From a virus (lineage: Duplodnaviria > Heunggongvirae > Uroviricota > Caudoviricetes), in the IMG/VR virus record IMGVR_UViG_3300037882_000610, positions 1 through 17,575 of that record: a stretch of DNA of 17,575 bases. One strand, 5' to 3'. This document shows positions 4,414-17,226 of this stretch, one piece after another (positions within the stretch are counted from its first letter, which is position 1; each line of letters opens with the position of its first letter). The position numbers and the translations under genes were made by a program. The notes under the pieces are model-generated. The model saw only the letters and a program-made list of their open reading frames with translations, ran no database searches and was not told the origin of the DNA.

Positions 4414-4631
4414 GTCGGCTCCTTCTCAGAGTTGAGAAAATCGTTGCGCATTTCGGTCTCGAAAGCATGCTTCAAGTTGAGATACATCTCCTCGCTCACG
4501 GGATTGGACTGGATGCCCGACAGCTCGCGAATGCGCAGGTAGTTGGCATAGTCGAAGTCGCGTGACCATGCGTCGCACTCTATGGTGCTCCAGATGCTGG
4601 GCGGGAATCGGTAGCTAGCAGAAAGGCTCAT
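4410..4631 (-). CDS. Hypothetical protein
   Basis: 73-aa ORF, overlap coupling. Confidence 0.7.
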   Translation of the reverse strand: MSLSASYRFPPSIWSTIECDAWSRDFDYANYLRIRELSGIQSNPVSEEMYLNLKHAFETEMRNDFLNSEKEPT

Positions 4632-5317
4632 AGCGTCCAGTCTCCTTTCTCTTCCATGTGGGGCTTGTGATGGTCATAGGAGACAATCTGGCGAGTGTCC
4701 ATGATGGCCTTGATCTTCTCGAAAGACATCGGACCTTCGAACCCATCAGCATCGACGCCGACATCCAAGACCTTTCCAGGCATCATCCCAGGCCACAGCA
4801 AGCTCCCGTGGCAACGCAGAGCGATGCGGAGGATGTCCCCATGCCCGATGCTGTAGCCCTTCTGCTGATACTTGGATACACGCAGGAGCGAGACGAACGG
4901 AAAGCGTGTGCCCTCGTGGAAAGACAGGTGACGTTGGGCGACGTGCTTCAGGAACTTGTCATGGAAGACAAAATCCTTGGCGTCAATGTCGTATGCGCCC
5001 ATGCAGCACGTGAAGTCGAAGGCATCGAACACAGCCGCAGCCGTGTCAAAGTATTCGAAGTACACAAGCTGAATCACCATATCATCCTGTGCGAACGTCA
5101 CTGACCGATCAGTTGCACTGACAGCCCACCATCCATTTTCGTAGGCTTGCTCGATTGCTTCGTAGAAAGCTTGCTCAGACTTGAAGTAGTAGTCCACATC
5201 GTTGATCGGTACATTGGAGAAGGCACTCGTAAGTGCCCCTCCCGCAATGAACGAACCCCGGGGTGTGAACCCTCCACCAGCCCCGCGAATCTTTCCGAGT
5301 TCGCGGGCGTGCTTCAC
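4628..5317 (-). CDS. Nucleotidyltransferase (PolyA-pol/CCA-head-like) with an apparent metallophosphoesterase C-terminal fragment; start GTG 5317
   Basis: FIAGGALTS...INDVDYYF, VQLV, FDAFDFTCCMGAYD motifs; C-terminus HGSL...KVLDVGVDA...DHH; GTGA overlap with the upstream 49-aa ORF. Confidence 0.7.
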   Translation of the reverse strand: MKHARELGKIRGAGGGFTPRGSFIAGGALTSAFSNVPINDVDYYFKSEQAFYEAIEQAYENGWWAVSATDRSVTFAQDDMVIQLVYFEYFDTAAAVFDAFDFTCCMGAYDIDAKDFVFHDKFLKHVAQRHLSFHEGTRFPFVSLLRVSKYQQKGYSIGHGDILRIALRCHGSLLWPGMMPGKVLDVGVDADGFEGPMSFEKIKAIMDTRQIVSYDHHKPHMEEKGDWTL

Positions 5318-5463
5318 TTCACTACCAGAGTGTCGATGTACTGAACCAGACCCAGGGAAGCTGCCTTCCCGGCTTCCTTGTCTCCCGACATCAGAGCCAA
5401 CGTGAGTTGGATGGAGAAGAGAGTGATTTGCACCTTGAGTGCTTGGGCTTGTGCTTCGGTCAT
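5314..5463 (-). CDS. Small hypothetical protein, 49 aa (below the ORF-track cutoff)
   Basis: MTEAQAQALKVQITLFSIQLTLALMSGDKEAGKAASLGLVQYIDTLVVK; ATGA and GTGA overlaps at both ends. Confidence 0.7.
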   Translation of the reverse strand: MTEAQAQALKVQITLFSIQLTLALMSGDKEAGKAASLGLVQYIDTLVVK

Positions 5464-6764
5464 TCGAACAGGAACCAGCGCTTTCCGCCTTCCAGAGCCA
5501 TGCCCGGGAAGTCCTTGATGTCCTGTACATAGCGACGGGGGCGAGTCTGACCTGCAACTCGGGCCTGCTCTCGCGTGTCGTACACACCAAAGACCTTCTT
5601 GCCATTGACATAGCTCAGGTCGATCACCTTCTTCGCAACCGGAATCGGCGAAGGCGTCGGCTTGTTCGTCGGAGCCACAGGCAGGCCTTGCAGCACAGCA
5701 GGAGCGGCAGCCACGTTGGCCTGACCAGCGTACTTGTCGAAGTCGGCTTGCGTCATCGGACGGCCTTGCTCAGCCCAGTAGAGCACCAGCGAGCCTTCAA
5801 CCAGCTTGCGGTTCCAGCTTTCGCTCTGGATGTAGATTTCGTACTGACCGTGGTCGCCCGGGTGCAGACGTGCGTTGTTCACCGTGTCCAGGCCGATCAT
5901 CTTGCGGGCATCGTTGCCAGCGTAGACCTTGCCCGTGCTCTTCTCACGAATGAGAATCAGCTTGGTCGGCGAAACACGCGATTCCGTCTTCGTGAGCTGG
6001 TAGAACGCAGCACCGAGCAGGTATTCCATTCGCTTGGTCAGGATGAAGTCACGGATCAGGATGCCCATCTGGCCCTGGCCGACTTGGTAGACGCTCACCT
6101 TGGGCGAGATGTCCACCAGCTTCGACGTGTCAACAGCCGCAGCTTGTGCGTAGAACGTGTTTGACGACTTGGCACCAGCAGAGCGGGCCGTGTAGAACTG
6201 CGTCACAGCCGCTTGGGTCTGCACAGTCGAGACCTTCATGCCTTCGGTCGTGGTGTCCCACTCTTGGATGTTCTCCGAAGGAACGCCCAGGTCATCCACT
6301 TGGCGACGTGCACCACGCGGGACACGGAACACGAACGTCCAGCGTCCAGTGCGTGCCAGCTCAGCGATCTTGGCCTTGACTTGCGGCTTGTAGGTGGAAG
6401 CGTCGTCGTAGTTGGCTTCACCGTCCGTCGTCGTGAAGATGACGAAGGAGACTTCTTCCTTGTTCAGGTCAGGAGCCGTCTCGTGGAGCTTGATGAGGTC
6501 GAGCAGGCCTTGGTACAGCGGAGTGCCACCAGAAGCGTTCCATCGGGCGATGGGCTTCAGCACGTGCGGATTGCTGAACGTGACTTCGCGAGTGGAGCCC
6601 CGTCCACCGATGTCCACGACAGAGACGATGGTGTCCTGCATTTCCGTGGTTGCAGCCTTGACGATAGCGCCAGAGATGGCGTTGTAGTCGGCAGCAGCAG
6701 CGATGGCGAGTTGCCCGCCCATCGAGCCCGAGTGGTCGTTGACAAATCCGATATAGTTCTTCAT
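5460..6764 (-). CDS. von Willebrand factor A domain protein
   Basis: MIDAS DHSGSM, GGTPLY and FTTDGE motifs; additional C-terminal domains. Confidence 0.85.
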   Translation of the reverse strand: MKNYIGFVNDHSGSMGGQLAIAAAADYNAISGAIVKAATTEMQDTIVSVVDIGGRGSTREVTFSNPHVLKPIARWNASGGTPLYQGLLDLIKLHETAPDLNKEEVSFVIFTTTDGEANYDDASTYKPQVKAKIAELARTGRWTFVFRVPRGARRQVDDLGVPSENIQEWDTTTEGMKVSTVQTQAAVTQFYTARSAGAKSSNTFYAQAAAVDTSKLVDISPKVSVYQVGQGQMGILIRDFILTKRMEYLLGAAFYQLTKTESRVSPTKLILIREKSTGKVYAGNDARKMIGLDTVNNARLHPGDHGQYEIYIQSESWNRKLVEGSLVLYWAEQGRPMTQADFDKYAGQANVAAAPAVLQGLPVAPTNKPTPSPIPVAKKVIDLSYVNGKKVFGVYDTREQARVAGQTRPRRYVQDIKDFPGMALEGGKRWFLFE

Positions 6765-6776
6765 GTTTCTCCTTGC

Positions 6777-7226
6777 TTACTGAACCCAAAGATATTTTTC
6801 GATGCCATCACCGAGGGTCCGGTCAATGATGGTCGAGATGATTTCCCAGTCGCCGCCACCGAGGCCGGCTCCCAAGAGAGGAAAGTTGACAGGGACGCCA
6901 TAGCTGACAGCGTAGGCTCTAACACCTTGGAAGGCTGTAGCTACTGCGTCGTAACTGACATAGCGAACGCGAGGCTCCCGCCCATAGAACTCCTGAGTCA
7001 TCGCATTGATGACATGCACGCCGGCATCCACATCTGCTACAAACTGAGTCTCTCCAAGAAACAAACCCCCTGATGCCCACTCCTGCTTGTAGTGTTCATA
7101 GACCTGGGGCCACTTGGTCTTCACAGCTAAGGCAACGCCAGAGCCCATTACACCTCGGCAATTGCAGCCGTGCACAATGATGCCCTTGGCATCAAGTAGG
7201 CTACCTTGCCTCTTGATGATCGTCAT
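6777..7226 (-). CDS. Macrodomain (Appr-1-p processing / ADP-ribose-binding) protein
   Basis: IVHGCNC.GVMGSGVA.A.K.KWP, VINAMTQ and FPLLGAGLGGGDW motifs. Confidence 0.9.
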   Translation of the reverse strand: MTIIKRQGSLLDAKGIIVHGCNCRGVMGSGVALAVKTKWPQVYEHYKQEWASGGLFLGETQFVADVDAGVHVINAMTQEFYGREPRVRYVSYDAVATAFQGVRAYAVSYGVPVNFPLLGAGLGGGDWEIISTIIDRTLGDGIEKYLWVQ

Positions 7227-7804
7227 TCCTTACGTCCTTTCAAAGATTCACTTATCTTGCGCCGATGATCCTCAGATTTTGGAACGCCTCTTGTGGATGC
7301 ACCGTCGTAACGACCCTCTGCTCTGAGCTGCCTGATTCTCGCAGCATGCTTGAGTTTGCGCTCTGGAGTCCAAGCCTTCGTAGAGTTTTCACTCTTCTTT
7401 TGACGATGCTCAGGCGTCTGAGCCGCAAGCTGTCCAGCCCTCACTCTGGCTGATTTCACAGGGTCTGCCCACATAGCTTTTGAGGAAGCAGCCACTGCTG
7501 CTCTCTGCTCTTCAGAAAAGATAAAGCCCGGCGCGAGTCCACCTACAACTTGTTCTTCCATCAGATTCGCCCAAGCGGGCGACTCAACTATCTGGTGTAC
7601 TTTGGAAAACAGACTTGCGTACTCTGAACAAAACTTCTCATCTTCAGATGATAACACAACAAACGTGTCAACATCTTTGCCGTGAACTTTTAAGTGGCGC
7701 AGCCAATACTTCCCTGACCCAGAATACTTGAGAGGGTCTTTGGTTGTCTTACCGAAGTACATCAAGCCCGTTTTTCGATGAGTCTTGACATACAGGTGAA
7801 TCAA
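7223..7804 (-). CDS. Seg-like (GIY-YIG variant) homing endonuclease with NUMOD3 repeats
   Basis: LYVKTH..TGLMYFGKT...Y.GSG..W..HLK.HG; C-terminal PKSEDHRRKISESLKGR. Confidence 0.8.
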   Translation of the reverse strand: MIHLYVKTHRKTGLMYFGKTTKDPLKYSGSGKYWLRHLKVHGKDVDTFVVLSSEDEKFCSEYASLFSKVHQIVESPAWANLMEEQVVGGLAPGFIFSEEQRAAVAASSKAMWADPVKSARVRAGQLAAQTPEHRQKKSENSTKAWTPERKLKHAARIRQLRAEGRYDGASTRGVPKSEDHRRKISESLKGRKE

Positions 7805-9018
7805 CCTTTTTGCTCCAAATAACTGTTAGAGATACATTTGACGGAGAAAGGCGTCGTGTTGCTCTTGTAGACCTGACCCTCACGCTTCACGCCAGGGTTC
7901 ATGCCAGGGCCTTCAGCGGCTGCCAGCATCTTGTCCATGATGGAACGGCCATCAGCCGGCTCACCTTCTTGCCATAGCTTGAAGTTGAGGCTTGCTGTCG
8001 GCACATAGTCCAGGCCCGCAGCAGCGGTGTAGGCACGTGCCATGTACGGAAGAGCGTACTGCTGATCGTCGATCTTGTACACGTCATAGACGTACCACTC
8101 AGGCTTCTCCACCTTCTCGTAGTTGCCCTGGATGGTCGGTGCAATCAGCTCACCTTGGAATGCCAGAGAGCCTTCGTTGAGGCACAGCGCCTCGATCTTG
8201 GCAATCACGTCATGGTCGCGGACGTACTGAGCGAAGTGCGTGTTGCCATCGAGGTCGAGTTCGATGTTGCGGCTGCACACACCGAAGATAGCCAGAGGCG
8301 TGATGGCAGGCTTGCCAAAGGCACGGCCAAACCAATACTTCGCGGCTTGCCACAGCGTCAGCTTCTTCAGGTAGGCGGCTTCGTACTGCGCTGCACGCTT
8401 CTTAAACGCTTCAGCGAAGTGCGGACTGTCGTGACGCAGAGCATACACGGTCATGGAAGAGCCGTCAAGCTTTGTCGAGACTTCGAACGACTCGCCGCTT
8501 GCTGCTGCACGCTCGATTTGAGGCACAGCGTTTTGCACACGCTCTTGGTCAGTCTTCTGGATGAAGAACGGCCACTGGCTTGTGCGGCTTCGCTGATCGG
8601 CAGGGCCACCATTGGCAGCACGTTCCTCGGGCGGCTCGTATTTCTCAACATTGAGAAGTTCCGACACGTCATCGCCTTCGGTGAGCACACGCAGGCCCAG
8701 TACGGACTTGGACAGCTCAGGGAACGCACTGATGGGCAGGATCAGGCCTTGGCTCAGTTGCTTGCGAAGGCGGATCGTCTTCAGACGGATACGCATGACG
8801 CCATCACGTTCCTTGGCATCCTTTGCCAGGAATTCGAACGCGGGGTGTGCACCCGGCAGGAACGAGTCGATTTCGAAGTAGACGCCCAGGTCTCCAACGC
8901 TGAATTCGCCCTTCTTGACGACAACGTTCCAGCCCCCGATTTGGGCCACTTCGATTTTGTCCGCGCCCGGGATGGGCAGCAGAGAGGCGATTGCCTGGAT
9001 GCTTGCGAGTTTACGCAC
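7801..9018 (-). CDS. RNA ligase, Rnl2 / DRB0094 family
   Basis: N-terminal RKLASI...IPGADKIEVA...GW.VVVKKGEF..GD..VYFEIDS; motif I KLDGSS; GEL; YVYDV; EG.VYK; K.ISN.YL. Confidence 0.9.
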   Translation of the reverse strand: MRKLASIQAIASLLPIPGADKIEVAQIGGWNVVVKKGEFSVGDLGVYFEIDSFLPGAHPAFEFLAKDAKERDGVMRIRLKTIRLRKQLSQGLILPISAFPELSKSVLGLRVLTEGDDVSELLNVEKYEPPEERAANGGPADQRSRTSQWPFFIQKTDQERVQNAVPQIERAAASGESFEVSTKLDGSSMTVYALRHDSPHFAEAFKKRAAQYEAAYLKKLTLWQAAKYWFGRAFGKPAITPLAIFGVCSRNIELDLDGNTHFAQYVRDHDVIAKIEALCLNEGSLAFQGELIAPTIQGNYEKVEKPEWYVYDVYKIDDQQYALPYMARAYTAAAGLDYVPTASLNFKLWQEGEPADGRSIMDKMLAAAEGPGMNPGVKREGQVYKSNTTPFSVKCISNSYLEQKG

Positions 9019-10895: not shown

Positions 10896-11660
10896 TTAGG
10901 TGTTGTGAAAATACATCTTGACAAAGGCCCGGGTCATGCCACTACGCAGCACGTCTTCGGGCAGGAATCGGACAGCACCAATGCCGTCGTCCAGGGCGTC
11001 CATGTCTTCATGGTTCATGTACTCGGGGTGCCCTTGCAAGGTCTTGTCAATCAACTTGAGTGTTGTTTCCAAGCCACTGTCACCCTTCAAGTCGTGCTGC
11101 TTTGTGTCGCCAGTGAAGATGATTTGGCAGTTGTCGCCCAGGCGGGTCAACATCATTTCCATTTCTTCTGCTGTGAAGTTCTGCACCTCTTCGGCGATGA
11201 CAAGGCAGTTCTCGAACGACATGCCACGCAAGTATTCAACGGGCTTCAGTTCGATGTCCTTGGCCTTCAGGGCATGATCCAGAGGGCCAGGGCCTAGGAA
11301 CTTGCTCAAGTGGGCAATCGTCTGTGCGAAGTAGGGTGCCAGCTTCTCTTCAATCTCTCCTGGCAGCAGACCGATGGACTTGCCGACAGAGACAGCGGGT
11401 CGCACAAGGTAGACCTTGCGGATGGCCTTGGAGCTGAACTGTGTGGCTGCACGGTAGGCTGCAAGCAGGGACTTGCCGGTGCCAGCACTGCCAGTGAGGA
11501 AGACAACAGGGCGACCCTCTTGCAGGTAGCCTAGCGCTTCACGCTGACGGGAATTCTTGGGTTCAAGCCGAGGTACAGGCTTGGGAATGATGCGAGGCGT
11601 AGGGATTTCCATCGCTTGCATCTGACGTTCACGCCGCGTCAGGCGTTTCGTATGCTTCAT
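10896..11660 (-). CDS. phoH: PhoH-family ATPase
   Basis: GSAGTGKS, RPAV, LPG...EKL.PY, YLRGMSF, EE.QN, RLG and GD.KQ.DL motifs. Confidence 0.93.
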   Translation of the reverse strand: MKHTKRLTRRERQMQAMEIPTPRIIPKPVPRLEPKNSRQREALGYLQEGRPVVFLTGSAGTGKSLLAAYRAATQFSSKAIRKVYLVRPAVSVGKSIGLLPGEIEEKLAPYFAQTIAHLSKFLGPGPLDHALKAKDIELKPVEYLRGMSFENCLVIAEEVQNFTAEEMEMMLTRLGDNCQIIFTGDTKQHDLKGDSGLETTLKLIDKTLQGHPEYMNHEDMDALDDGIGAVRFLPEDVLRSGMTRAFVKMYFHNT

Positions 11661-13415: not shown

Positions 13416-13508
13416 GGGCGTCTTGGGGATATGGTGTGTGCCCCAACCGGCTGTAACCCGGTTCCCACGTGGTAAACATTCTTGGTTCGAATCCAAGGGC
13501 GCCCACCA
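13416..13508 (+). tRNA. tRNA-Tyr(GTA)
   Basis: GGGCGTC/GGCGCCC acceptor, ACCGG-CTGTAAC-CCGGT, long variable arm, TTCGAAT T-loop, ACCA. Confidence 0.9.
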
Positions 13509-13525
13509 AATTTGAAGGAGAGAAG

Positions 13526-13717
13526 ATGTTTGGACTTGGAAGTTTGCTTGGCGATGTAGCCAAGGCTGCTGTTGCTGTCGTTACGGTGCCTGTCGCTCTG
13601 GTGACTGACACGGCAGAGGTCGTTGGCCTGAAGAACGACAGTGGCAAGAGCCACACGGGCAATGCGCTAGGCGCTGTGGTGCAAAATCTCGAAAACGCAA
13701 TCGACCCTCGCAAATGA
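13526..13717 (+). CDS. Small hypothetical protein (63 aa, MFGLGSLLGDVAKAAVAVVTVPV...)
   Basis: AAGGAG RBS at 13515-13520. Confidence 0.75.
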   Translation: MFGLGSLLGDVAKAAVAVVTVPVALVTDTAEVVGLKNDSGKSHTGNALGAVVQNLENAIDPRK

Positions 13718-13812
13718 AGAATTTCTGTGCTACACTAGCGATTCTTGTTTCAGCTGTTGTTTATGTTGTGGCTGAGAGCATCGAAGGTGCGATTGAAACC
13801 TTATTCGATTAA
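13714..13812 (+). CDS. Small hydrophobic protein, 32 aa
   Basis: MKNFCATLAILVSAVVYVVAESIEGAIETLFD; ATGA overlap. Confidence 0.5.
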   Translation: MKNFCATLAILVSAVVYVVAESIEGAIETLFD

Positions 13813-13815
13813 GTC

Positions 13816-13843
13816 TTGACAAAGAAATAAAACGTGCTATAAT
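13816..13843 (+). promoter_or_regulatory. Sigma70-like promoter of the tRNA cluster
   Basis: TTGACA-16 nt-TATAAT with GTGC extension, about 10 nt before tRNA-Thr. Confidence 0.85.
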
Positions 13844-13852
13844 GCGCGTCTT

Positions 13853-13926
13853 GCCCCTGTAGCATGAAGGTCGTGCAGCTGCCTTGTAAGCATCAGGCCC
13901 GTGTTCGATTCACGGTGGGGGCACCA
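13853..13926 (+). tRNA. tRNA-Thr(TGT)
   Basis: GCCCCTG/TGGGGGC acceptor, CTTGTAA loop, CCGTG-TTCGATT-CACGG, ACCA. Confidence 0.9.
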
Positions 13927-13930
13927 AACG

Positions 13931-14003
13931 ATTCGTCTAGGCATGGTAGTCTGCGCAAACTGCCAACATTGGTGATGCAGGTTCAATTCCTGCCGGGCGA
14001 GCC
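13931..14003 (+). pseudogene. Degenerate tRNA-Gly(GCC)-like element
   Basis: Intact T-arm GCAGG-TTCAATT-CCTGC and CTGCCAA loop, but broken anticodon stem, GU-rich acceptor and no CCA. Confidence 0.55.
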
Positions 14004-14005
14004 TT

Positions 14006-14083
14006 GCGCAAGTGGAGGGAATTGGTATACCCTGCTGACTCAAAATCAGTTGTCTGTCAGTTCGAGTCTGACCTTGCGCACCA
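14006..14083 (+). tRNA. tRNA-Leu(CAA) with a short variable loop
   Basis: GCGCAAG/CTTGCGC acceptor, CTGA-CTCAAAA-TCAG, GTCAG-TTCGAGT-CTGAC, ACCA. Confidence 0.85.
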
Positions 14084-14197
14084 TGTGTTTTTAGACCCGC
14101 CAGGAGAAGAGCCTGCCAGCTCACACTCCACGAATGGCAGTTCGTGTTATTCTTGCCCAGAAAGCTTACAAAGGATAGATGGCGGGTCTAAGAGCAT
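14084..14197 (+). ncRNA. Unknown ncRNA element A (17-bp closing stem)
   Basis: 14086-14102 pairs with 14180-14196 (17 bp, 2 GU); internal alternative helices. Confidence 0.6.
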
Positions 14198-14200
14198 ATT

Positions 14201-14278
14201 CCGTCGTTAGCTCAATGGACTCAGAGCAACCCCGTTCTAAGGGGCCGGTTAGGGGTTCGAGTCCCTTACGACGGACCA
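14201..14278 (+). tRNA. tRNA-Arg(TCT)
   Basis: CCGTCGT/ACGACGG acceptor, GCTC/GAGC D-stem, GTTCTAA loop, TTCGAGT, ACCA. Confidence 0.88.
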
Positions 14279-14290
14279 AGAGTTCTTTGG

Positions 14291-14366
14291 TGTGGCTTTC
14301 AGCTAGTGGTCAAGCTCCGGGATTGTGATTCCCGTAACATGGGTTCAAATCCCATAGGCCACCCCA
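14291..14366 (+). tRNA. tRNA-His(GTG), genomic T at position -1
   Basis: GTGGCTT/AGGCCAC acceptor, CGGGA-TTGTGAT-TCCCG, ATGGG-TTCAAAT-CCCAT, C73-CCA. Confidence 0.88.
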
Positions 14367-14405
14367 AAGAATTTTCTTATCAGCAATGAGAAAGTGTAGT
14401 ACAAT

Positions 14406-14479
14406 GCTTCCAAGCACAAGGTGTGTCGCAGGCCTTCCAAGCCTCGCAGAGTAGGGTTCGATTCCCTCTGGACGCTCCA
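14406..14479 (+). tRNA. Atypical or degenerate tRNA-Gly(TCC)
   Basis: AGGC-CTTCCAA-GCCT, AGGG-TTCGATT-CCCT, U73-CCA; mismatches in the acceptor and T stems, aberrant D region. Confidence 0.6.
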
Positions 14480-14485
14480 GTCAAT

Positions 14486-14522
14486 GCCGGACGACTCTCG
14501 CCTAGTCCGCGAGCCGGCTCCA
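14486..14522 (+). ncRNA. 37-nt tRNA minihelix-like element ending in TCCA
   Basis: GCCGG/CCGGC stem, CTCGC-CTAGTCC-GCGAG hairpin, T-CCA end. Confidence 0.4.
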
Positions 14523-14547
14523 AAATTGTCGTGCAGACCTGAAAAGC

Positions 14548-14558
14548 TGTGCTACAAT
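14548..14558 (+). promoter_or_regulatory. Extended -10 promoter upstream of the hairpin array
   Basis: TGTGCTACAAT, identical to the -10 region at 12656-12666; no clear -35. Confidence 0.55.
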
Positions 14559-14577
14559 ACAGTCTACGACAGAATTT

Positions 14578-14641
14578 AGAGTGCTTCAAGCAAACTCCTA
14601 CTATTGCAAGCCATTATTCTTTTGCGAGAAAAGAGCACTCT
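14578..14641 (+). ncRNA. Array unit U1
   Basis: AGAGTGCT/AGCACTCT stem, AAGCAA motif, inner TTCT/AGAA hairpin. Confidence 0.75.
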
Positions 14642-14650
14642 GTTGAACTT

Positions 14651-14716
14651 GGGATGTTTTCAGCAAACACAACATTTTGAAAACTTTTGGTAGCCTTCAA
14701 AAGCAAACATCATCCC
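14651..14716 (+). ncRNA. Array unit U2
   Basis: GGGATG/CATCCC stem, CAGCAA, inner CTTTTG/CAAAAG hairpin. Confidence 0.75.
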
Positions 14717-14724
14717 GTTGACCT

Positions 14725-14831
14725 CTCAGAACTTAGACCTGCAAGAAAACTTGCAACCGCCCGACTGCTAGGGCTCGCGCTGGATACTGGTGCATTGCAA
14801 GCATAAGCAGCTTGCAGGTCTAAGTCTTGAG
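14725..14831 (+). ncRNA. Unknown ncRNA element B inserted in the array (perfect 15-bp stem)
   Basis: ACTTAGACCTGCAAG 14731-14745 / CTTGCAGGTCTAAGT 14811-14825; inner multibranch. Confidence 0.65.
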
Positions 14832-14846
14832 TGACTTACAAAATTT

Positions 14847-14908
14847 AGGATCGTTACAGCAACCAATATACACTTCACTTGTAATGAAACCTGTAAAAAG
14901 GCGATCCT
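14847..14908 (+). ncRNA. Array unit U3 with a Thr(UGU)-type anticodon stem-loop
   Basis: AGGATCG/CGATCCT, CAGCAA, TTCA-CTTGTAA-TGAA. Confidence 0.78.
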
Positions 14909-14917
14909 GCTGAATCT

Positions 14918-15008
14918 AGACTGAGTGCAGCAACACTCTTAAATGGAAAAACTTTTCACTACAAATGAAAACTAGACGGTTCAAATCCGTCAAAAAGAAC
15001 CTCAGTCT
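14918..15008 (+). ncRNA. Array unit U4 with an anticodon arm and a perfect T-arm
   Basis: AGACTGA/TCAGTCT, CAGCAA, TTTTCA-CTACAAA-TGAAAA, GACGG-TTCAAAT-CCGTC. Confidence 0.8.
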
Positions 15009-15017
15009 GTTGAATTT

Positions 15018-15167
15018 AGATTCGTTTCTGCAACCACATACGATAACGCCTTTTAAGCGAGTGGCATGGGTTCGAGTCCCATCTGCCGGGGTATAGTTAA
15101 CTACTCCCTAGCGGTAGCTTAGCTGGTAGAGCACTTAGGTCGAAAGACCAATCAAACCAACGAATCT
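15018..15167 (+). ncRNA. Array unit U5: YrlA-like permuted tRNA mimic with a Lys(UUU) loop
   Basis: AGATTCGTT/AACGAATCT, CTGCAA, CGC-CTTTTAA-GCG, T-arm, acceptor-like stem, D-arm, GGTCGAAAG. Confidence 0.82.
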
Positions 15168-15176
15168 GTTGAATTT

Positions 15177-15317
15177 AGGCTCCATGCTGCAAACAAACGC
15201 ATTGGAAAAGCCGCCATACGTAGGTTCGATCCCTACCCCTCCGACTAAGAGCATGTTGTGTTTTTAGACGGAGGGTAGCCAAGAGGTAAGGCAGCGGCAC
15301 GCAAAAGAGCGGAGCCT
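15177..15317 (+). ncRNA. Array unit U6: circularly permuted tRNA mimic (YrlA-like)
   Basis: AGGCTCC/GGAGCCT, CTGCAA; order T-arm, CCCTCCG/CGGAGGG acceptor, D-arm; GCCGC/GCGGC stem. Confidence 0.85.
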
Positions 15318-15327
15318 GTTGAAAATT

Positions 15328-15397
15328 AGGTTGATTTCTGCATACACAAAAATCTTCTGAACTAGGAGCGGTATCCGAGAGGGGCCGCACTCAACCT
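15328..15397 (+). ncRNA. Array unit U7
   Basis: AGGTTGA/TCAACCT, CTGCAT, TCTT-CTGAACT-AGGA, GNRA-capped hairpin. Confidence 0.72.
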
Positions 15398-15422
15398 GTT
15401 AACTAACATCAAGGAGAAACTG

Positions 15423-16838
15423 ATGTCCACGTTCGCACAAGCCGTCGCCCGTCACAACAATGTGACCCATACCGAAAACGGTATGCCGGCTCTCAAATCT
15501 TCACTCAACGCTTGCGTTGACCTGTTCTTCTCTGCTGGCGCAAGCCGTGGCAAGGACATCACTGTTCCGTTCTTCACGGCTCTGGCCGAAGATCGCGACA
15601 CTGCTCTGCGTCTGCTGCTCTGGCTGCGTGACGTTCGCGGTGGTGCGGGTGAGCGTCAACTGTTCCGAGACCTTCTCGTGCAGTTGGAAGCCAAGGACGA
15701 GGCAGCTCTGCTGGACATCTTCCACCTGATTCCTGAGATGGGTCGCTGGGATGACCTGTTCGTCTTTAAGACGAAGGTCTGGCAAGATGCCGCATTCCAG
15801 TTCGTGGGCGAAGCTCTGATGGACGGCAACGGTCTGGCTGCCAAGTGGACTCCTCGCAAGGGTGATGTCGCTGTGGCCTTCCGCAAGTTCCTGGGCTGGT
15901 CTCCGAAGTTCTACCGCAAGTCGCTTGTTGAGCTGTCCAACACTGTTGAGCAGAAGATGTGCGCTGGTCAGTGGGACGCAATCGAATTCGGCAAGCTGCC
16001 GTCGCTGGCTTCGGCCCGCTACCAGAAGGCTTTCCTGAAGCGTGCTCCTGAAGCCTACACTGCCTACAAGGCGGCCCTTGTGAAGGGTGAGGCGAAGATC
16101 AACGCTGCGGGTGTATATCCGTATGACATTCTGAAGAGCACTCGCTTCGGCGATGAAACTGTGGCGGAAGCCCAGTGGAAGGCTCTCCCGAACTGGTTGA
16201 CCGAAGGCACGGGAATCCTCCCGATGATTGACGTGTCGGGCTCTATGGGTGTTCCTGCGGGTGGCTCTGGCGTTCTGTCTTGCATGGACGTGGCAATCTC
16301 CCTGGGCGTGTACATTGCTGACAAGCAGCAAGGTCCGTTCCACGGTGCATGGCTTTCGTTCAGCTCGCGTCCGACGCTGGGTTTCCTGAATGATGCTTGG
16401 TCATTGAAGCAGAAGTTCAATGCGACGCAGCAAGGAGCTGGTTACACGACCAACATCCAAGGTGCGTTCAGTGAAGTTATGACGGTTGCAAAGCGCAACA
16501 GTGTTGCACCGACAGACATGCCGAAGTACATTGTCGTGTTGAGCGATATGCAGTTCGATGACGGACAAGTTGATGGCAACAGCACTGGCGCTTTCGCAAT
16601 GGCAAAGTCCATGTACGAAGCTGCTGGCTACGAGCTGCCTACGCTGGTCTTCTGGAACCTGAATGATCGTGGGAACAACACTCCGGTGGAGTTCAACGAG
16701 ATGGGCGTCGCGATGGTCTCTGGCTTCAGCCCGAGCATCATGCAAAGCGTTCTGGGTGCCAAGCATGTCAGCCCTGTGGACATCATGAACGAGACCTTGC
16801 AGAAGGATCGTTACGATTACACGCAACGTTCTCAGTAA
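15423..16838 (+). CDS. DUF2828 / TROVE-like vWA protein (Ro60/Rsr-like)
   Basis: N-terminal TENG...S.LNAC.DLFF..GASRG, WLRDVRGG.GER, GRWDD, AKW.PR; C-terminal MIDAS DVSGSM, TTNIQ, LSDMQFD, VFWNL, SGFSP; AAGGAG RBS. Confidence 0.85.
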   Translation: MSTFAQAVARHNNVTHTENGMPALKSSLNACVDLFFSAGASRGKDITVPFFTALAEDRDTALRLLLWLRDVRGGAGERQLFRDLLVQLEAKDEAALLDIFHLIPEMGRWDDLFVFKTKVWQDAAFQFVGEALMDGNGLAAKWTPRKGDVAVAFRKFLGWSPKFYRKSLVELSNTVEQKMCAGQWDAIEFGKLPSLASARYQKAFLKRAPEAYTAYKAALVKGEAKINAAGVYPYDILKSTRFGDETVAEAQWKALPNWLTEGTGILPMIDVSGSMGVPAGGSGVLSCMDVAISLGVYIADKQQGPFHGAWLSFSSRPTLGFLNDAWSLKQKFNATQQGAGYTTNIQGAFSEVMTVAKRNSVAPTDMPKYIVVLSDMQFDDGQVDGNSTGAFAMAKSMYEAAGYELPTLVFWNLNDRGNNTPVEFNEMGVAMVSGFSPSIMQSVLGAKHVSPVDIMNETLQKDRYDYTQRSQ

Positions 16839-16870
16839 TGAGATTGCCGAATGGCTGAGGTTAGGCGAGT

Positions 16871-16942
16871 GACGGAAGTCCAGCGCTGCTGATCCTAGTA
16901 GGCATGAAAGCCCGATGACGGTAGGGCTCTAGAAATTCCGTC
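16871..16942 (+). ncRNA. Structured element downstream of the DUF2828 gene
   Basis: GACGGAA/TTCCGTC closing stem; AGCCC/GGGCT hairpin. Confidence 0.45.
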
Positions 16943-16943
16943 T

Positions 16944-17081
16944 GCATTGACCAGGGCCTGTAAGTATAGAGGTCTGGAAGTTTCACCGGGAACTGGGCGG
17001 CACATAGCGCTCTCTGTGTCTGAAGGTTGAACGTGGTAGCCCGTCGAACGGCAAAACCCGGGTACGGGCTCTGGTCAATGT
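16944..17081 (+). ncRNA. Unknown ncRNA element C (18-19 bp closing stem)
   Basis: 16945-16962 pairs with 17063-17080 (18 bp, 2 GU); inner hairpins. Confidence 0.65.
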
Positions 17082-17094
17082 GAGGGAGGTTGGG

Positions 17095-17226
17095 ATGAAA
17101 GATAACAGTTTGAAGTACAGGCGACTAGGATACAGTTCCAAGAACGACTGGAACCGTTGGCAACGTCGCTTCCGAAGAGATATGAAGAAACTGGGGTGTG
17201 CCGAACAGGGTTCAAACGGGACTTGA
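17095..17226 (+). CDS. Small basic protein, 43 aa, overlapping tRNA-Ser(TGA)
   Basis: MKDNSLKYRRLGYSSKNDWNRWQRRFRRDMKKLGCAEQGSNGT; GAGGGAGG RBS. Confidence 0.5.
   Translation: MKDNSLKYRRLGYSSKNDWNRWQRRFRRDMKKLGCAEQGSNGT

What the first reader, a model, noticed from the sequence alone, without database searches (positions are those of the whole stretch)
14874..15367. Array units display anticodon stem-loops: possible decoys for anticodon nucleases
Seen: four units contain 7-nt loops starting C32-U33 on short stems. U3 has TTCA-CTTGTAA-TGAA (UGU, the same loop as this phage's tRNA-Thr). U4 has TTTTCA-CTACAAA-TGAAAA (ACA), followed at tRNA spacing by a perfect T-arm. U5 has CGC-CTTTTAA-GCG (UUU, Lys). 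U7 has TCTT-CTGAACT-AGGA (GAA, Phe-like, C37). None has a CCA end, so none can be aminoacylated as a normal tRNA. Known: PrrC and PARIS AriB cleave tRNA-Lys(UUU), and other defence toxins cleave other anticodon loops. Inference: these are decoy substrates or inhibitors, stabilised by the Ro60-like protein, or sensors of tRNA cleavage.
Basis: partly seen in the sequence, partly recalled or inferred. Interest (0 to 1): 0.72.

Follow-up and report, generated by a model that had tools for sequence, protein, structure and literature searches.

The report
Anticodon-arm mimics on phage Ro60 RNAs
Small RNAs encoded just upstream of a phage gene for a Ro60-like ring protein carry hairpins built like tRNA anticodon arms; related phages carry sets of them with different anticodons, so they are selected tRNA mimics, possibly baits for host enzymes that cut tRNA anticodon loops, though that role is untested.

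Summary
All four stem-loops are at the stated places. Three have comparative support. U3 (14874-14888) belongs to a class of about 60-nt RNAs in many phages with a 5-bp stem that covaries (4 of 5 pairs compensatory) and a 7-nt loop with positions 32, 33, 37 and 38 fixed. U4 (14953-14971, plus T-arm) is a tRNA body whose acceptor stem is replaced by the array's shared handle. U5 (15047-15059) is the shortened anticodon arm of a complete, circularly permuted tRNA. U7 (15353-15367) is weak: pyrimidine at 37, no homologue, variable in near relatives.

The units share a handle: a closing stem, then a CAGCAA-type motif. A DNA search for one version of this handle alone returned loci of which 40 of 59 also hold a Ro60-like gene. 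The window's 471-aa protein models as Ro60 (TROVE plus vWA).

Across phages the loops show Lys, Arg, Thr, Ser, Cys, Tyr and Phe anticodons, and none repeats within a genome.

So the mimicry is real and selected. The decoy role is plausible (an RNA ligase lies nearby; Lys UUU is the commonest loop) but untested. Rivals are a tether for tRNA enzymes and inherited tRNA parts.

This scan has noted the same handle family in 120 or more other genomes. I found it neither in Rfam nor in the papers searched.

The parts
14573..14723 (+). Units U1 and U2: handle RNAs without an anticodon arm. Each has a closing stem, a CAGCAA-type motif and short cargo.
   Evidence: Repeat family D1/D2; folds; homologues in L001 and L045
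14724..14845 (+). Unit U2b: a long hairpin unit whose linker is fully paired (21-nt arms)
   Evidence: Inverted repeat I1; fold of -50.8 kcal/mol
14842..14914 (+). Unit U3: handle stem 14846-14853 pairs with 14902-14909; the cargo is an anticodon arm only
14874..14888 (+). U3 anticodon-arm mimic with a Thr(UGU)-type 7-nt loop
   Evidence: Homologues in L001 and L045 and seven IMG/VR contigs. Stem covaries in 4 of 5 pairs; loop invariant except positions 34/35
14913..15014 (+). Unit U4: a tRNA body without an acceptor stem (decayed D region, anticodon arm, variable loop, T-arm), closed by handle stem 14917-14925 / 15001-15009
   Evidence: L001 unit at 2888 and L104, L143, L158 and L162 show the same design with intact D arms
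14953..14971 (+). U4 anticodon-arm mimic, anticodon ACA. The L001 homologue has GCA; both are Cys-type.
   Evidence: Three of the five stem pairs change on both sides between the window and L001
14976..14992 (+). U4 T-arm (5-bp stem, 7-nt T-loop)
15013..15173 (+). Unit U5: complete circularly permuted tRNA-like RNA. Order: handle, short anticodon arm, variable loop, T-arm 15066-15082, acceptor closed by a hairpin, D-arm 15117-15132, handle.
   Evidence: Weak Rfam YrlA hit at 15062-15132 (21 bits); fold; homologues L001:2788-2882 (YrlA, 37.6 bits), L045, L188, L115, L153, L211
15047..15059 (+). U5 short anticodon arm: 3-bp stem with a Lys(UUU)-type 7-nt loop
   Evidence: Same position and covarying 3-bp stem in L188 (same loop), L045 and Citrobacter phage Ci1 (Glu-type loop), and L001 (5-nt loop). 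4- or 5-bp versions occur in L115, L153, L211, L101 and L159
15172..15324 (+). Unit U6: permuted tRNA-like (YrlA-type) RNA without an anticodon loop. It is missing in close soil-metagenome relatives.
   Evidence: joint 15165->15316
15323..15403 (+). Unit U7: last handle unit, running into the ribosome-binding site of the Ro60-like gene
15353..15367 (+). U7 hairpin: 4-bp stem and 7-nt loop with C at 37. A doubtful anticodon-arm mimic.
   Evidence: No homologous unit found. Relatives differ at 15359, 15360 and 15367. Its stem resembles that of the Phe/Tyr/Arg arms of L211, L153 and L115
15423..16838 (+). Ro60-like protein (DUF2828 + DUF7788; TROVE-like HEAT ring plus a vWA domain with an intact DxSxS motif)
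   Evidence: Pfam; PHROG 850; AlphaFold model with pLDDT 84; Foldseek hits to Ro60 structures at E 6e-10 to 1e-6 over the full length; invariant D270, S272, S274
7801..9018 (-). RNA ligase (N-terminal OB domain plus the RNA_ligase domain): genomic context pointing to RNA repair

Best explanation
Shown or strongly supported. The stem-loops are genuine, selected copies of the tRNA anticodon arm. They are carried as cargo on small RNAs that share one handle: a closing stem of the 5' and 3' ends, two to four bases, then a CAGCAA-type motif, an A-rich 3' side and a UGUU tail. These RNAs are the likely Y-RNA-like partners of the phage's Ro60-like ring protein. In this window they are made as one array from a promoter upstream of U1, on the same transcript as the protein gene. 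Inferred: the array is cut in the single-stranded linker between units. Each unit offers a different tRNA part. U3 offers an anticodon arm alone, U4 a tRNA body without an acceptor stem, and U5 a whole permuted tRNA. Inferred mechanism: the handle holds the RNA on the Ro60-like ring, and the exposed arm acts as bait for a factor that reads anticodon arms. The leading candidate is a host anticodon nuclease switched on by infection. The bait would soak it up or block it, one RNA per targeted tRNA species, while the phage's own tRNAs and RNA ligase keep translation going. I put about 0.85 on 'selected anticodon-arm mimics on Ro60-partner RNAs'. I put about 0.35-0.4 on 'bait for anticodon nucleases'; the confidence given is for this second, full statement.
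For: Structure: the arm stem covaries (4 of 5 pairs; 0 of 500 shuffles reach the score) while loop positions 32, 33, 36, 37 and 38 are invariant in ten U3-type units. Of 65 small handle units from 219 loci, 31 carry such an arm. Among the 72 units with the GGAUCG-type stem, 23 such hairpins (a few are T-loops) were seen against 7.4 +/- 2.7 in shuffles. Own constraint: the frame C32 U33 NNN A37 A38 holds in 29 of 31 units against 212 of 339 phage tRNAs (P = 2.6e-4). C32 holds in 9 of 9 units of classes whose real tRNAs mostly have U32 (16 of 57 have C32; P = 5.5e-5). Anticodon sets: Lys UUU (11), Arg UCU (7), Thr UGU (7), Ser UGA (5), Cys (4), Tyr, Phe and others, with no repeat within any of 12 genomes holding two or more (P about 0.01 under random draws). 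Near-identical units differ only at position 35, giving Lys or Arg. Link to the protein: a handle-only DNA pattern search found units in 59 loci, 40 of them with a Ro60-like gene in the fetched stretch. The protein models as Ro60. Nuclease pressure: an RNA ligase and a Macro-domain gene lie in the window. The genome carries 21 tRNAs, including all four anticodon types on display. Its tRNA-Lys(UUU) loop ends in C38 and several other tRNA loops are off-consensus, while U5 has the consensus Lys loop. AriB of PARIS recognises the anticodon stem-loop of tRNA-Lys, and a phage tRNA variant escapes it (PMC11464382). A Ro60-like protein of phage Bas63 counters a defence system (PMC11482910).
Against: No nuclease, cleavage, binding or expression was tested, and no RNA-seq holder was found. 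The fixed loop frame with C32, even where real tRNAs have U32, shows the arms are not faithful copies of particular tRNAs. The stems are AU-rich and vary freely, whereas AriB is sensitive to a stem base pair. PrrC-type enzymes depend on base modifications that a bare hairpin may not receive. Ser, Cys and Thr arms have no well-known phage-defence nuclease, as far as I know. The one published phenotype for a phage Ro60-like protein concerns a system not known to cut tRNA. The genomes compared are related, so the P values are too optimistic. The known phage answer to these nucleases is replacement or repair of tRNAs, not decoys.
Confidence: 0.38

Rival explanations
1. Tether, not decoy. As in the Ro60 / Y RNA / PNPase machine, the tRNA parts are handles that bring a tRNA-binding enzyme to the Ro60-like ring. 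Candidates are the phage RNA ligase, a nucleotidyltransferase, RNase P/Z, a modification enzyme or PNPase. The complex would then inspect, repair or degrade damaged tRNAs.
For: Y RNAs tether Ro60 to effectors, and bacterial YrlA mimics tRNA and is handled by tRNA enzymes (PMC4201824). Thermus phage Ro60 and its Y-like RNAs assemble with host PNPase (PMC12135203). An RNA ligase and a nucleotidyltransferase-like gene lie in the window. The cargo ranges from a bare arm to whole tRNA bodies, which fits a generic tRNA likeness.
Against: A generic tether does not explain why each genome carries several arms with different anticodons and none twice. It also does not explain why only positions 34-36 vary while the rest of the loop is fixed.
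Confidence: 0.25
2. Inherited furniture. The units arose from tRNA genes in tRNA clusters, and the arms persist as stable U-turn hairpins that protect the RNA from nucleases. The anticodon triplet has no role.
For: Units sit inside tRNA clusters, often a few bases after a tRNA 3' end. Chen et al. proposed protection by the stable tRNA fold. U7 and the 5-nt loop of the L001 U5-type unit show that arms can decay.
Against: The loop frame is kept more strictly than in real tRNAs. The stems show compensatory change. No stop-codon-reading triplet occurs among about 43 loops, and anticodons do not repeat within genomes.
Confidence: 0.15
3. RNA-RNA reader. The loops pair with complementary triplets or loops. 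One form is pairing with a codon left empty in the ribosomal A site when its tRNA has been destroyed, which would make the RNP a sensor of tRNA loss. Another is kissing between units.
For: Anticodon stem-loops alone bind the 30S A site in a codon-dependent way (established knowledge). A human Y RNA binds ribosomes (PMC13501136, title seen). The U3 and U4 loops are complementary over 5 nt in the window, and over 5 nt with one G-U in L001.
Against: Loop-loop complementarity is absent in other arrays (L045, L122, L211). There is no evidence of ribosome association. An arm without an acceptor end would compete with the phage's own decoding.
Confidence: 0.1
4. Chance hairpins in an AU-rich, repeat-rich spacer.
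For: Enrichment within the window alone is modest (P 0.005-0.02). U7 has no support from relatives.
Against: Covariation and recurrence across dozens of contigs for the U3, U4 and U5 types.
Confidence: 0.03

Closest known systems
Ro60 (Rsr) with Y RNAs of the YrlA type (Salmonella, Mycobacterium, mycobacteriophages; Rfam RF02553; Chen et al. 2014, PMC4201824)
   Same: A ring protein of the Ro60 fold is encoded next to small RNAs whose 5' and 3' ends pair. The cargo mimics tRNA (T-arm, D-arm, acceptor closed by a loop, permuted order). U5 and U6 and their homologues align to the whole YrlA model.
   Different: The protein is DUF2828/DUF7788, with no match to Ro60 chains in a sequence search of solved structures. 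The handle motif is different. Rfam scores are far below the gathering score (18-38 bits against 69). Units come in arrays of up to eight. YrlA has no anticodon loop, whereas here canonical 7-nt anticodon loops are displayed, alone or on tRNA bodies.
Deinococcus radiodurans Yrn1
   Same: Chen et al. model it with a possible 'anticodon arm' with a 5-bp stem between T-like and D-like arms.
   Different: That loop has 6 nt and no variable arm, and no set of different anticodons exists.
Phage answers to anticodon nucleases: T5 tRNA-Lys against PARIS AriB (PMC11464382); phage tRNAs with altered anticodon loops (eLife 2023, cited there); T4 Pnkp/Rnl1 repair against PrrC (established knowledge)
   Same: The same battlefield: anticodon arms of Lys and other tRNAs. 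This phage also has a large tRNA set with off-consensus loops and an RNA ligase.
   Different: Those are working tRNAs or repair enzymes. The units here cannot be charged (no acceptor end), so they could act only by binding or by being cut.
Thermus phage phiLo Ro60 with Yrl1/Yrl2 (PMC12135203; PDB 9KOP, 9L5Y)
   Same: A phage Ro60 with phage-encoded partner RNAs just upstream of the gene. It is the best structural match to the window's protein.
   Different: Yrl1/2 are described as stem-bulge-stem RNAs with a CGAA motif, with no tRNA parts reported. Sequence identity in the structural alignment is about 16%.
Dictyostelid Class I RNAs (Rfam RF01414; PMC7919456)
   Same: About 60 nt, a short stem joining the two ends, a conserved motif next to the 5' half of the stem, and a variable remainder. 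Small units of relatives hit the Rfam model at 29 bits.
   Different: The hits are below the gathering score (41.5) and none falls in the window. Class I RNAs are eukaryotic, and no anticodon-arm cargo is described for them.

Membership tests
Ro60 / Y RNA ribonucleoprotein | Ro60-fold protein (TROVE HEAT ring plus a vWA domain with a MIDAS motif) encoded beside the RNA | tested here: met
   The AlphaFold model (pLDDT 84) matches Ro60 structures over the full length, E 6e-10 to 1e-6. DxSxS is invariant. Pfam gives DUF2828/DUF7788, not TROVE.
Ro60 / Y RNA ribonucleoprotein | RNA whose 5' and 3' ends form the protein-binding stem, with a conserved motif | tested here: inconclusive
   A terminal stem and a conserved adjacent motif are present in every unit and covary between units. 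The motif is not the known Y RNA bulged helix.
Ro60 / Y RNA ribonucleoprotein | Physical binding of the RNA by the protein | not testable with these tools
   Only genomic linkage is available: 40 of 59 loci found by the handle alone carry the gene nearby.
YrlA (Rfam RF02553) | Score at or above the family's gathering score (69 bits) | tested here: not met
   Window: 21.2 and 18.3 bits. L001: 37.6 bits and L045: 34 bits, both over the full model.
YrlA (Rfam RF02553) | Permuted tRNA-like domain (T-arm, closed acceptor, D-arm) | tested here: met
   U5 and U6. Not met for U3, U4 or U7.
Transfer RNA | Cloverleaf with a paired acceptor stem and a free 3' end for charging | tested here: not met
   ARAGORN finds none in 14367-17192. 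The Rfam tRNA model gives 24 bits over positions 10-63 only, for U4. No CCA end.
Transfer RNA | Anticodon arm: 5-bp stem and 7-nt loop with U33 and a purine at 37 | tested here: met
   Met for U3 (4 bp here, 5 bp in relatives), U4 and U5 (3 bp). Not met at position 37 for U7.
Decoy or inhibitor of anticodon nucleases (a functional class, not a sequence family) | Bound or cut by an anticodon nuclease, and protects phage or tRNA | not testable with these tools
   Only circumstantial: the anticodon sets, the RNA ligase and off-consensus loops in the phage's own tRNAs.

The most novel reading that the evidence does not exclude
The Ro60-like ring and its set of anticodon-arm RNAs form a codon-reading sensor. 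When a host nuclease destroys one tRNA species, the matching arm pairs with the empty codon in the ribosomal A site. This brings the ring, and with it repair or decay enzymes, to the stalled ribosome. The phage would then detect which tRNA is under attack and respond.
Probability: 0.07. Interest if true: 0.9.

Novelty: new variant of a known kind. Interest (0 to 1): 0.68.

Why it matters
Ro60 and Y RNAs have been known for forty years, but what the tRNA-like part of bacterial Y RNAs is for remains open. Here the tRNA likeness extends to the anticodon arm. It comes as sets of different anticodons on one interchangeable handle, in many unrelated phages, beside a Ro60-like protein family (DUF2828) for which the papers I searched name no RNA partner. 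That turns a vague 'tRNA mimic' into a precise, testable idea: each RNA stands in for one tRNA species. If the arms are baits for anticodon nucleases, this would be an RNA-based anti-defence strategy distinct from the two known ones, resistant replacement tRNAs and enzymatic repair. It could also explain why a Ro60-like gene protects phage Bas63 from a defence system. If they are not baits, the anticodon sets still need an explanation.

Tried and rejected
1. DNA similarity of the array to 50,697 phage records found only the unrelated tRNA-like element at 14403-14479.
2. A sequence search of the protein against solved structures found nothing; the fold search was needed.
3. The nhmmer profile of the linker found only the window, L001 and L045 clearly. 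Weak hits pointed to arrays downstream of the gene in other phages.
4. Sequencing runs: no RNA holder was listed, and all shares were small. Laid contigs gave no evidence on expression or RNA ends.
5. A kissing-loop idea (U3 against U4) holds in the window and in L001 but not in other arrays, so I dropped it as a general rule.
6. Pairing of the UGUUG tail with CAGCA: it would be a pseudoknot, and it is imperfect in U5-U7, so it is not claimed.
7. A blastn search for a Lys-type unit in isolated phages, meant to allow comparison with known host tRNAs, gave only 9 partial hits in Vibrio and Aeromonas phages. The host comparison was not done.
8. RtcB and T4 Rnl1-type ligase searches of the genome were negative. 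The Rnl1 control rang nowhere, so that negative carries no weight.

Full report
WHAT IS THERE. The stretch 14560-15420 lies between a tRNA cluster (Tyr, Thr, Leu, Arg and His genes, 13416-14366) and a 471-codon gene at 15423-16838. It is an array of eight head-to-tail units. Each unit has the same plan. A 5' leader ends in UAG. Then comes a stem strand of 5-9 nt that differs from unit to unit, two to four bases, a CAGCAA-type motif, a variable cargo, the complementary stem strand, and a tail beginning CUGUUGAA that runs straight into the next unit's leader. Minimum-energy folds close every unit with this stem. A -10 box (TACAAT) lies at the same distance upstream of the first unit in the window, L001 and L045. 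No terminator-like site separates the array from the gene. Array and gene are therefore probably one transcript. The linker contains a G-A-A-U-U-U string resembling the RNase E preference; I offer cleavage there only as an inference.

THE PROTEIN. Pfam sees DUF2828 and DUF7788, and PHROGs calls it 'RNA-binding protein'. A sequence search of solved structures finds nothing. An AlphaFold model built on 26 homologues (pLDDT 84, pTM 0.81) matches Ro60 structures over its whole length: Thermus phage phiLo Ro60 (E 6e-10), Xenopus Ro, human Ro60 and Deinococcus Rsr. The vWA metal-site motif is invariant. 'Ro60-like' is therefore justified.

THE OBSERVATION.
- The U3 loop equals the loop of the phage's tRNA-Thr.
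- U4 is followed at tRNA spacing by a perfect T-arm.
- No unit has a chargeable end.
- Within the window alone the excess of such hairpins over shuffles is modest (P 0.005-0.02), so the case rests on relatives.

RELATIVES. Two contigs encode a protein 65-66% identical and carry homologous arrays upstream of it: L001 with four units and L045 with five.
- Their U3-type units have the same arm with different stem pairs. One has the Thr-type loop, the other a Ser(GCU)-type loop.
- The L001 U4-type unit has a Cys(GCA) loop where the window has ACA, again with compensatory stem changes, and the same T-arm.
- The U5-type units keep a 3-bp hairpin at the same place, just before the variable loop and T-arm, with a Glu-type 7-nt loop in L045 and a 5-nt loop in L001.
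- The very string of the L045 hairpin recurs in Citrobacter phage Ci1. There the handle sits inside a CCA-ended, non-permuted tRNA-like RNA in place of the anticodon arm.

I then searched IMG/VR with a 14-base pattern taken only from the handle of U3. Of the 120 loci held from that scan, 59 contain a complete unit, meaning the matching 3' strand and tail, and 40 of those 59 also encode a Ro60-like protein within the fetched stretch. This is an independent link between handle and protein.

THE ANTICODON ARMS ARE SELECTED. Ten U3-type units from ten contigs align with 82% mean identity.
- On that alignment the arm's 5-bp stem is 98% paired, and 4 of 5 pairs carry changes on both sides. No shuffle of 500 reaches the covariation score, and sliding the partner destroys the pairing.
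- The 7-nt loop is invariant except at positions 34 and 35.
- A general unit finder run on all loci gave 65 small units (70 nt or less). Of these, 31 have a strict anticodon-type hairpin, and several more are near misses.
- The loop frame C32 U33 NNN A37 A38 holds in 29 of 31. The phages' own 339 distinct tRNAs with U or A at position 36 keep it in only 212 (Fisher P = 2.6e-4).
- In the Thr, Cys and Ser(GCU) classes, real tRNAs mostly have U32, yet the units have C32 in 9 of 9 (P = 5.5e-5).
- The arms are therefore not passive copies of neighbouring tRNA genes. They obey their own stricter rule, while the anticodon triplet varies.

SETS OF ANTICODONS. The triplets on display are Lys UUU (11), Arg UCU (7), Thr UGU (7), Ser UGA (5), Cys (4), Tyr (2), Phe (2) and single cases of five others. 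None would read a stop codon. In the 12 genomes with two or more arms, none is repeated (P about 0.01 if drawn at random from the pool). The genomes are related, so this P value is optimistic. Near-identical units differ by the single base that turns Lys into Arg.

A GRADED SERIES OF tRNA PARTS. Larger cargoes show the same arms in context.
- In L143, L158, L104 and L162 the D-arm, anticodon arm, variable loop and T-arm are all present, and the handle stem replaces the acceptor stem. Window U4 is this design with a decayed D-arm.
- In L115, L153, L211, L101, L159 and L188 the cargo is a complete tRNA, circularly permuted. The handle enters between the D-arm and the anticodon arm, and the acceptor is closed by a loop. 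Window U5 is this design with a 3-bp arm.
- U6 is the classical YrlA form without an anticodon loop.
- U7 stands apart. Its stem resembles the arms of L211, L153 and L115, but it has C37 and U38 and no T-arm follows. Metagenome contigs 95-97% identical to the window differ at two loop positions, and one of them breaks a stem pair. I treat it as a decayed or unrelated hairpin.

WHAT IT MIGHT DO.
- The commonest arms are Lys UUU and Arg UCU. Lys UUU is the classic target of PrrC (established knowledge) and of PARIS AriB, which recognises the anticodon stem-loop (PMC11464382).
- The window encodes an RNA ligase with an N-terminal OB domain, a Macro-domain protein and a PhoH-like ATPase.
- The 81.6-kb genome has 21 tRNA genes, including Thr UGU, Cys GCA, Lys UUU and Phe GAA.
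- Several of its tRNAs have unusual loops: Lys UUU ends in C38, Arg UCU starts with G32, Phe has G37 and Tyr has C38. U5 shows the consensus Lys loop. That is the pattern expected if the real tRNAs evade a nuclease while a mimic attracts it.
- A Ro60-like protein of phage Bas63 was found to counter a defence system, and its authors guessed that some neighbouring 'tRNA genes' might be Y RNAs (PMC11482910).

Against the decoy idea:
- Nothing functional was tested.
- The arms follow a house style rather than copying given tRNAs.
- Their stems drift freely.
- Bare hairpins may lack the modifications that some nucleases need.
- The Bas63 target is not known to cut tRNA.

The main rival is the classical Y RNA role, a tether that brings a tRNA-handling enzyme to the ring. 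This explains the tRNA bodies well but not the non-redundant anticodon sets. Pure inheritance from tRNA ancestors explains the location in tRNA clusters but not the conservation pattern.

NOVELTY. Rfam has no family for the handle. Hits to YrlA are 18-38 bits against a threshold of 69, and small units of relatives touch the dictyostelid Class I model at 29 bits against 41.5. Five full-text searches, including one for DUF2828 alone, found no description of these RNAs. Notes of this scan, which I opened only after my own analysis, report the same handle family beside Ro60-like genes in 120 or more other genomes, several with anticodon-loop mimics. Within this project the family is therefore a repeated find, not new to this window. 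The specific points added here are the covariation test of the arm, the stricter-than-tRNA loop frame, the non-redundant sets, the assignment of U4 and U5 to two tRNA-body designs, and the contrast with the phage's own tRNA loops.

VERDICT. The mimicry is supported. The decoy function is plausible but unproven. This is a new variant of the Ro60 / Y RNA theme and leads to a sharp, testable hypothesis.

Noticed in passing
window 14403-14479 (+), promoter-like site 14377-14405: A 77-nt tRNA-like element has a Gly(UCC)-type anticodon arm and a T-arm, and ends in CUCCA, but has no matching 5' acceptor strand. It is 80-97% identical in 525 phage records of Klebsiella, Salmonella, Escherichia, Vibrio and Aeromonas phages, mostly unannotated there. 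ARAGORN does not call it, and the Rfam tRNA model gives 20 bits. It is also the part of the stretch most held by metagenome runs.
   Followed up: partly
L004:4522-4763, L002:4490-4740, L003, L046, L048, L050, L051; also L184, L207: The same handle (GGAUCG-type stem) carries a conserved cargo of about 180-240 nt just downstream of the Ro60-like gene in another phage group. Further cargo classes of about 110 nt and 150-170 nt recur in many contigs. There is no Rfam match, and the function is unknown.
   Followed up: no
window 15165-15316 (unit U6): Soil-metagenome contigs closely related to the window join U5 directly to U7 (a 150-nt skip at the linker motif). Whole units are therefore gained or lost by recombination between linkers.
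   Followed up: partly
G000 tRNA genes at 18994-19070, 14201-14278, 20637-20712, 13416-13508: The phage's own tRNAs have off-consensus anticodon loops: Lys UUU with C38, Arg UCU with G32, Phe with G37 and Tyr with C38. This is the kind of change proposed elsewhere to evade anticodon nucleases.
   Followed up: partly
window 7801-9018 (-), 6777-7226 (-), 4628-5611 (-), 10896-11660 (-): An RNA ligase with an N-terminal OB domain, a Macro-domain protein, a nucleotidyltransferase-like protein and a PhoH-like ATPase lie within 11 kb of the array. This may be an RNA-repair neighbourhood.
   Followed up: partly
L044 (Citrobacter phage Ci1) 4891-5005 and 5012-5125: Two CCA-ended or near-CCA tRNA-like RNAs downstream of the Ro60-like gene carry the handle motif in place of the anticodon arm. 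This is the non-permuted counterpart of the window's U5/U6. One is annotated as a pseudo-tRNA.
   Followed up: partly
window 14878-14884 and 14959-14965: The U3 and U4 loops are complementary over five bases. The L001 pair is too, with one G-U. Other arrays do not show this.
   Followed up: yes
L004:4455-4516, L046:2894-2954: Small handle units of relatives hit Rfam's Dictyostelium Class I RNA model at 29 bits (threshold 41.5). Class I RNAs have the same plan: a terminal stem plus a conserved motif next to its 5' half.
   Followed up: partly
L016:4700-4960 (FelixO1-like contigs L016-L042): In FelixO1-like phages, the group of Bas63, small handle units without anticodon arms are interspersed among tRNA genes just downstream of the Ro60-like gene.
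   Followed up: no
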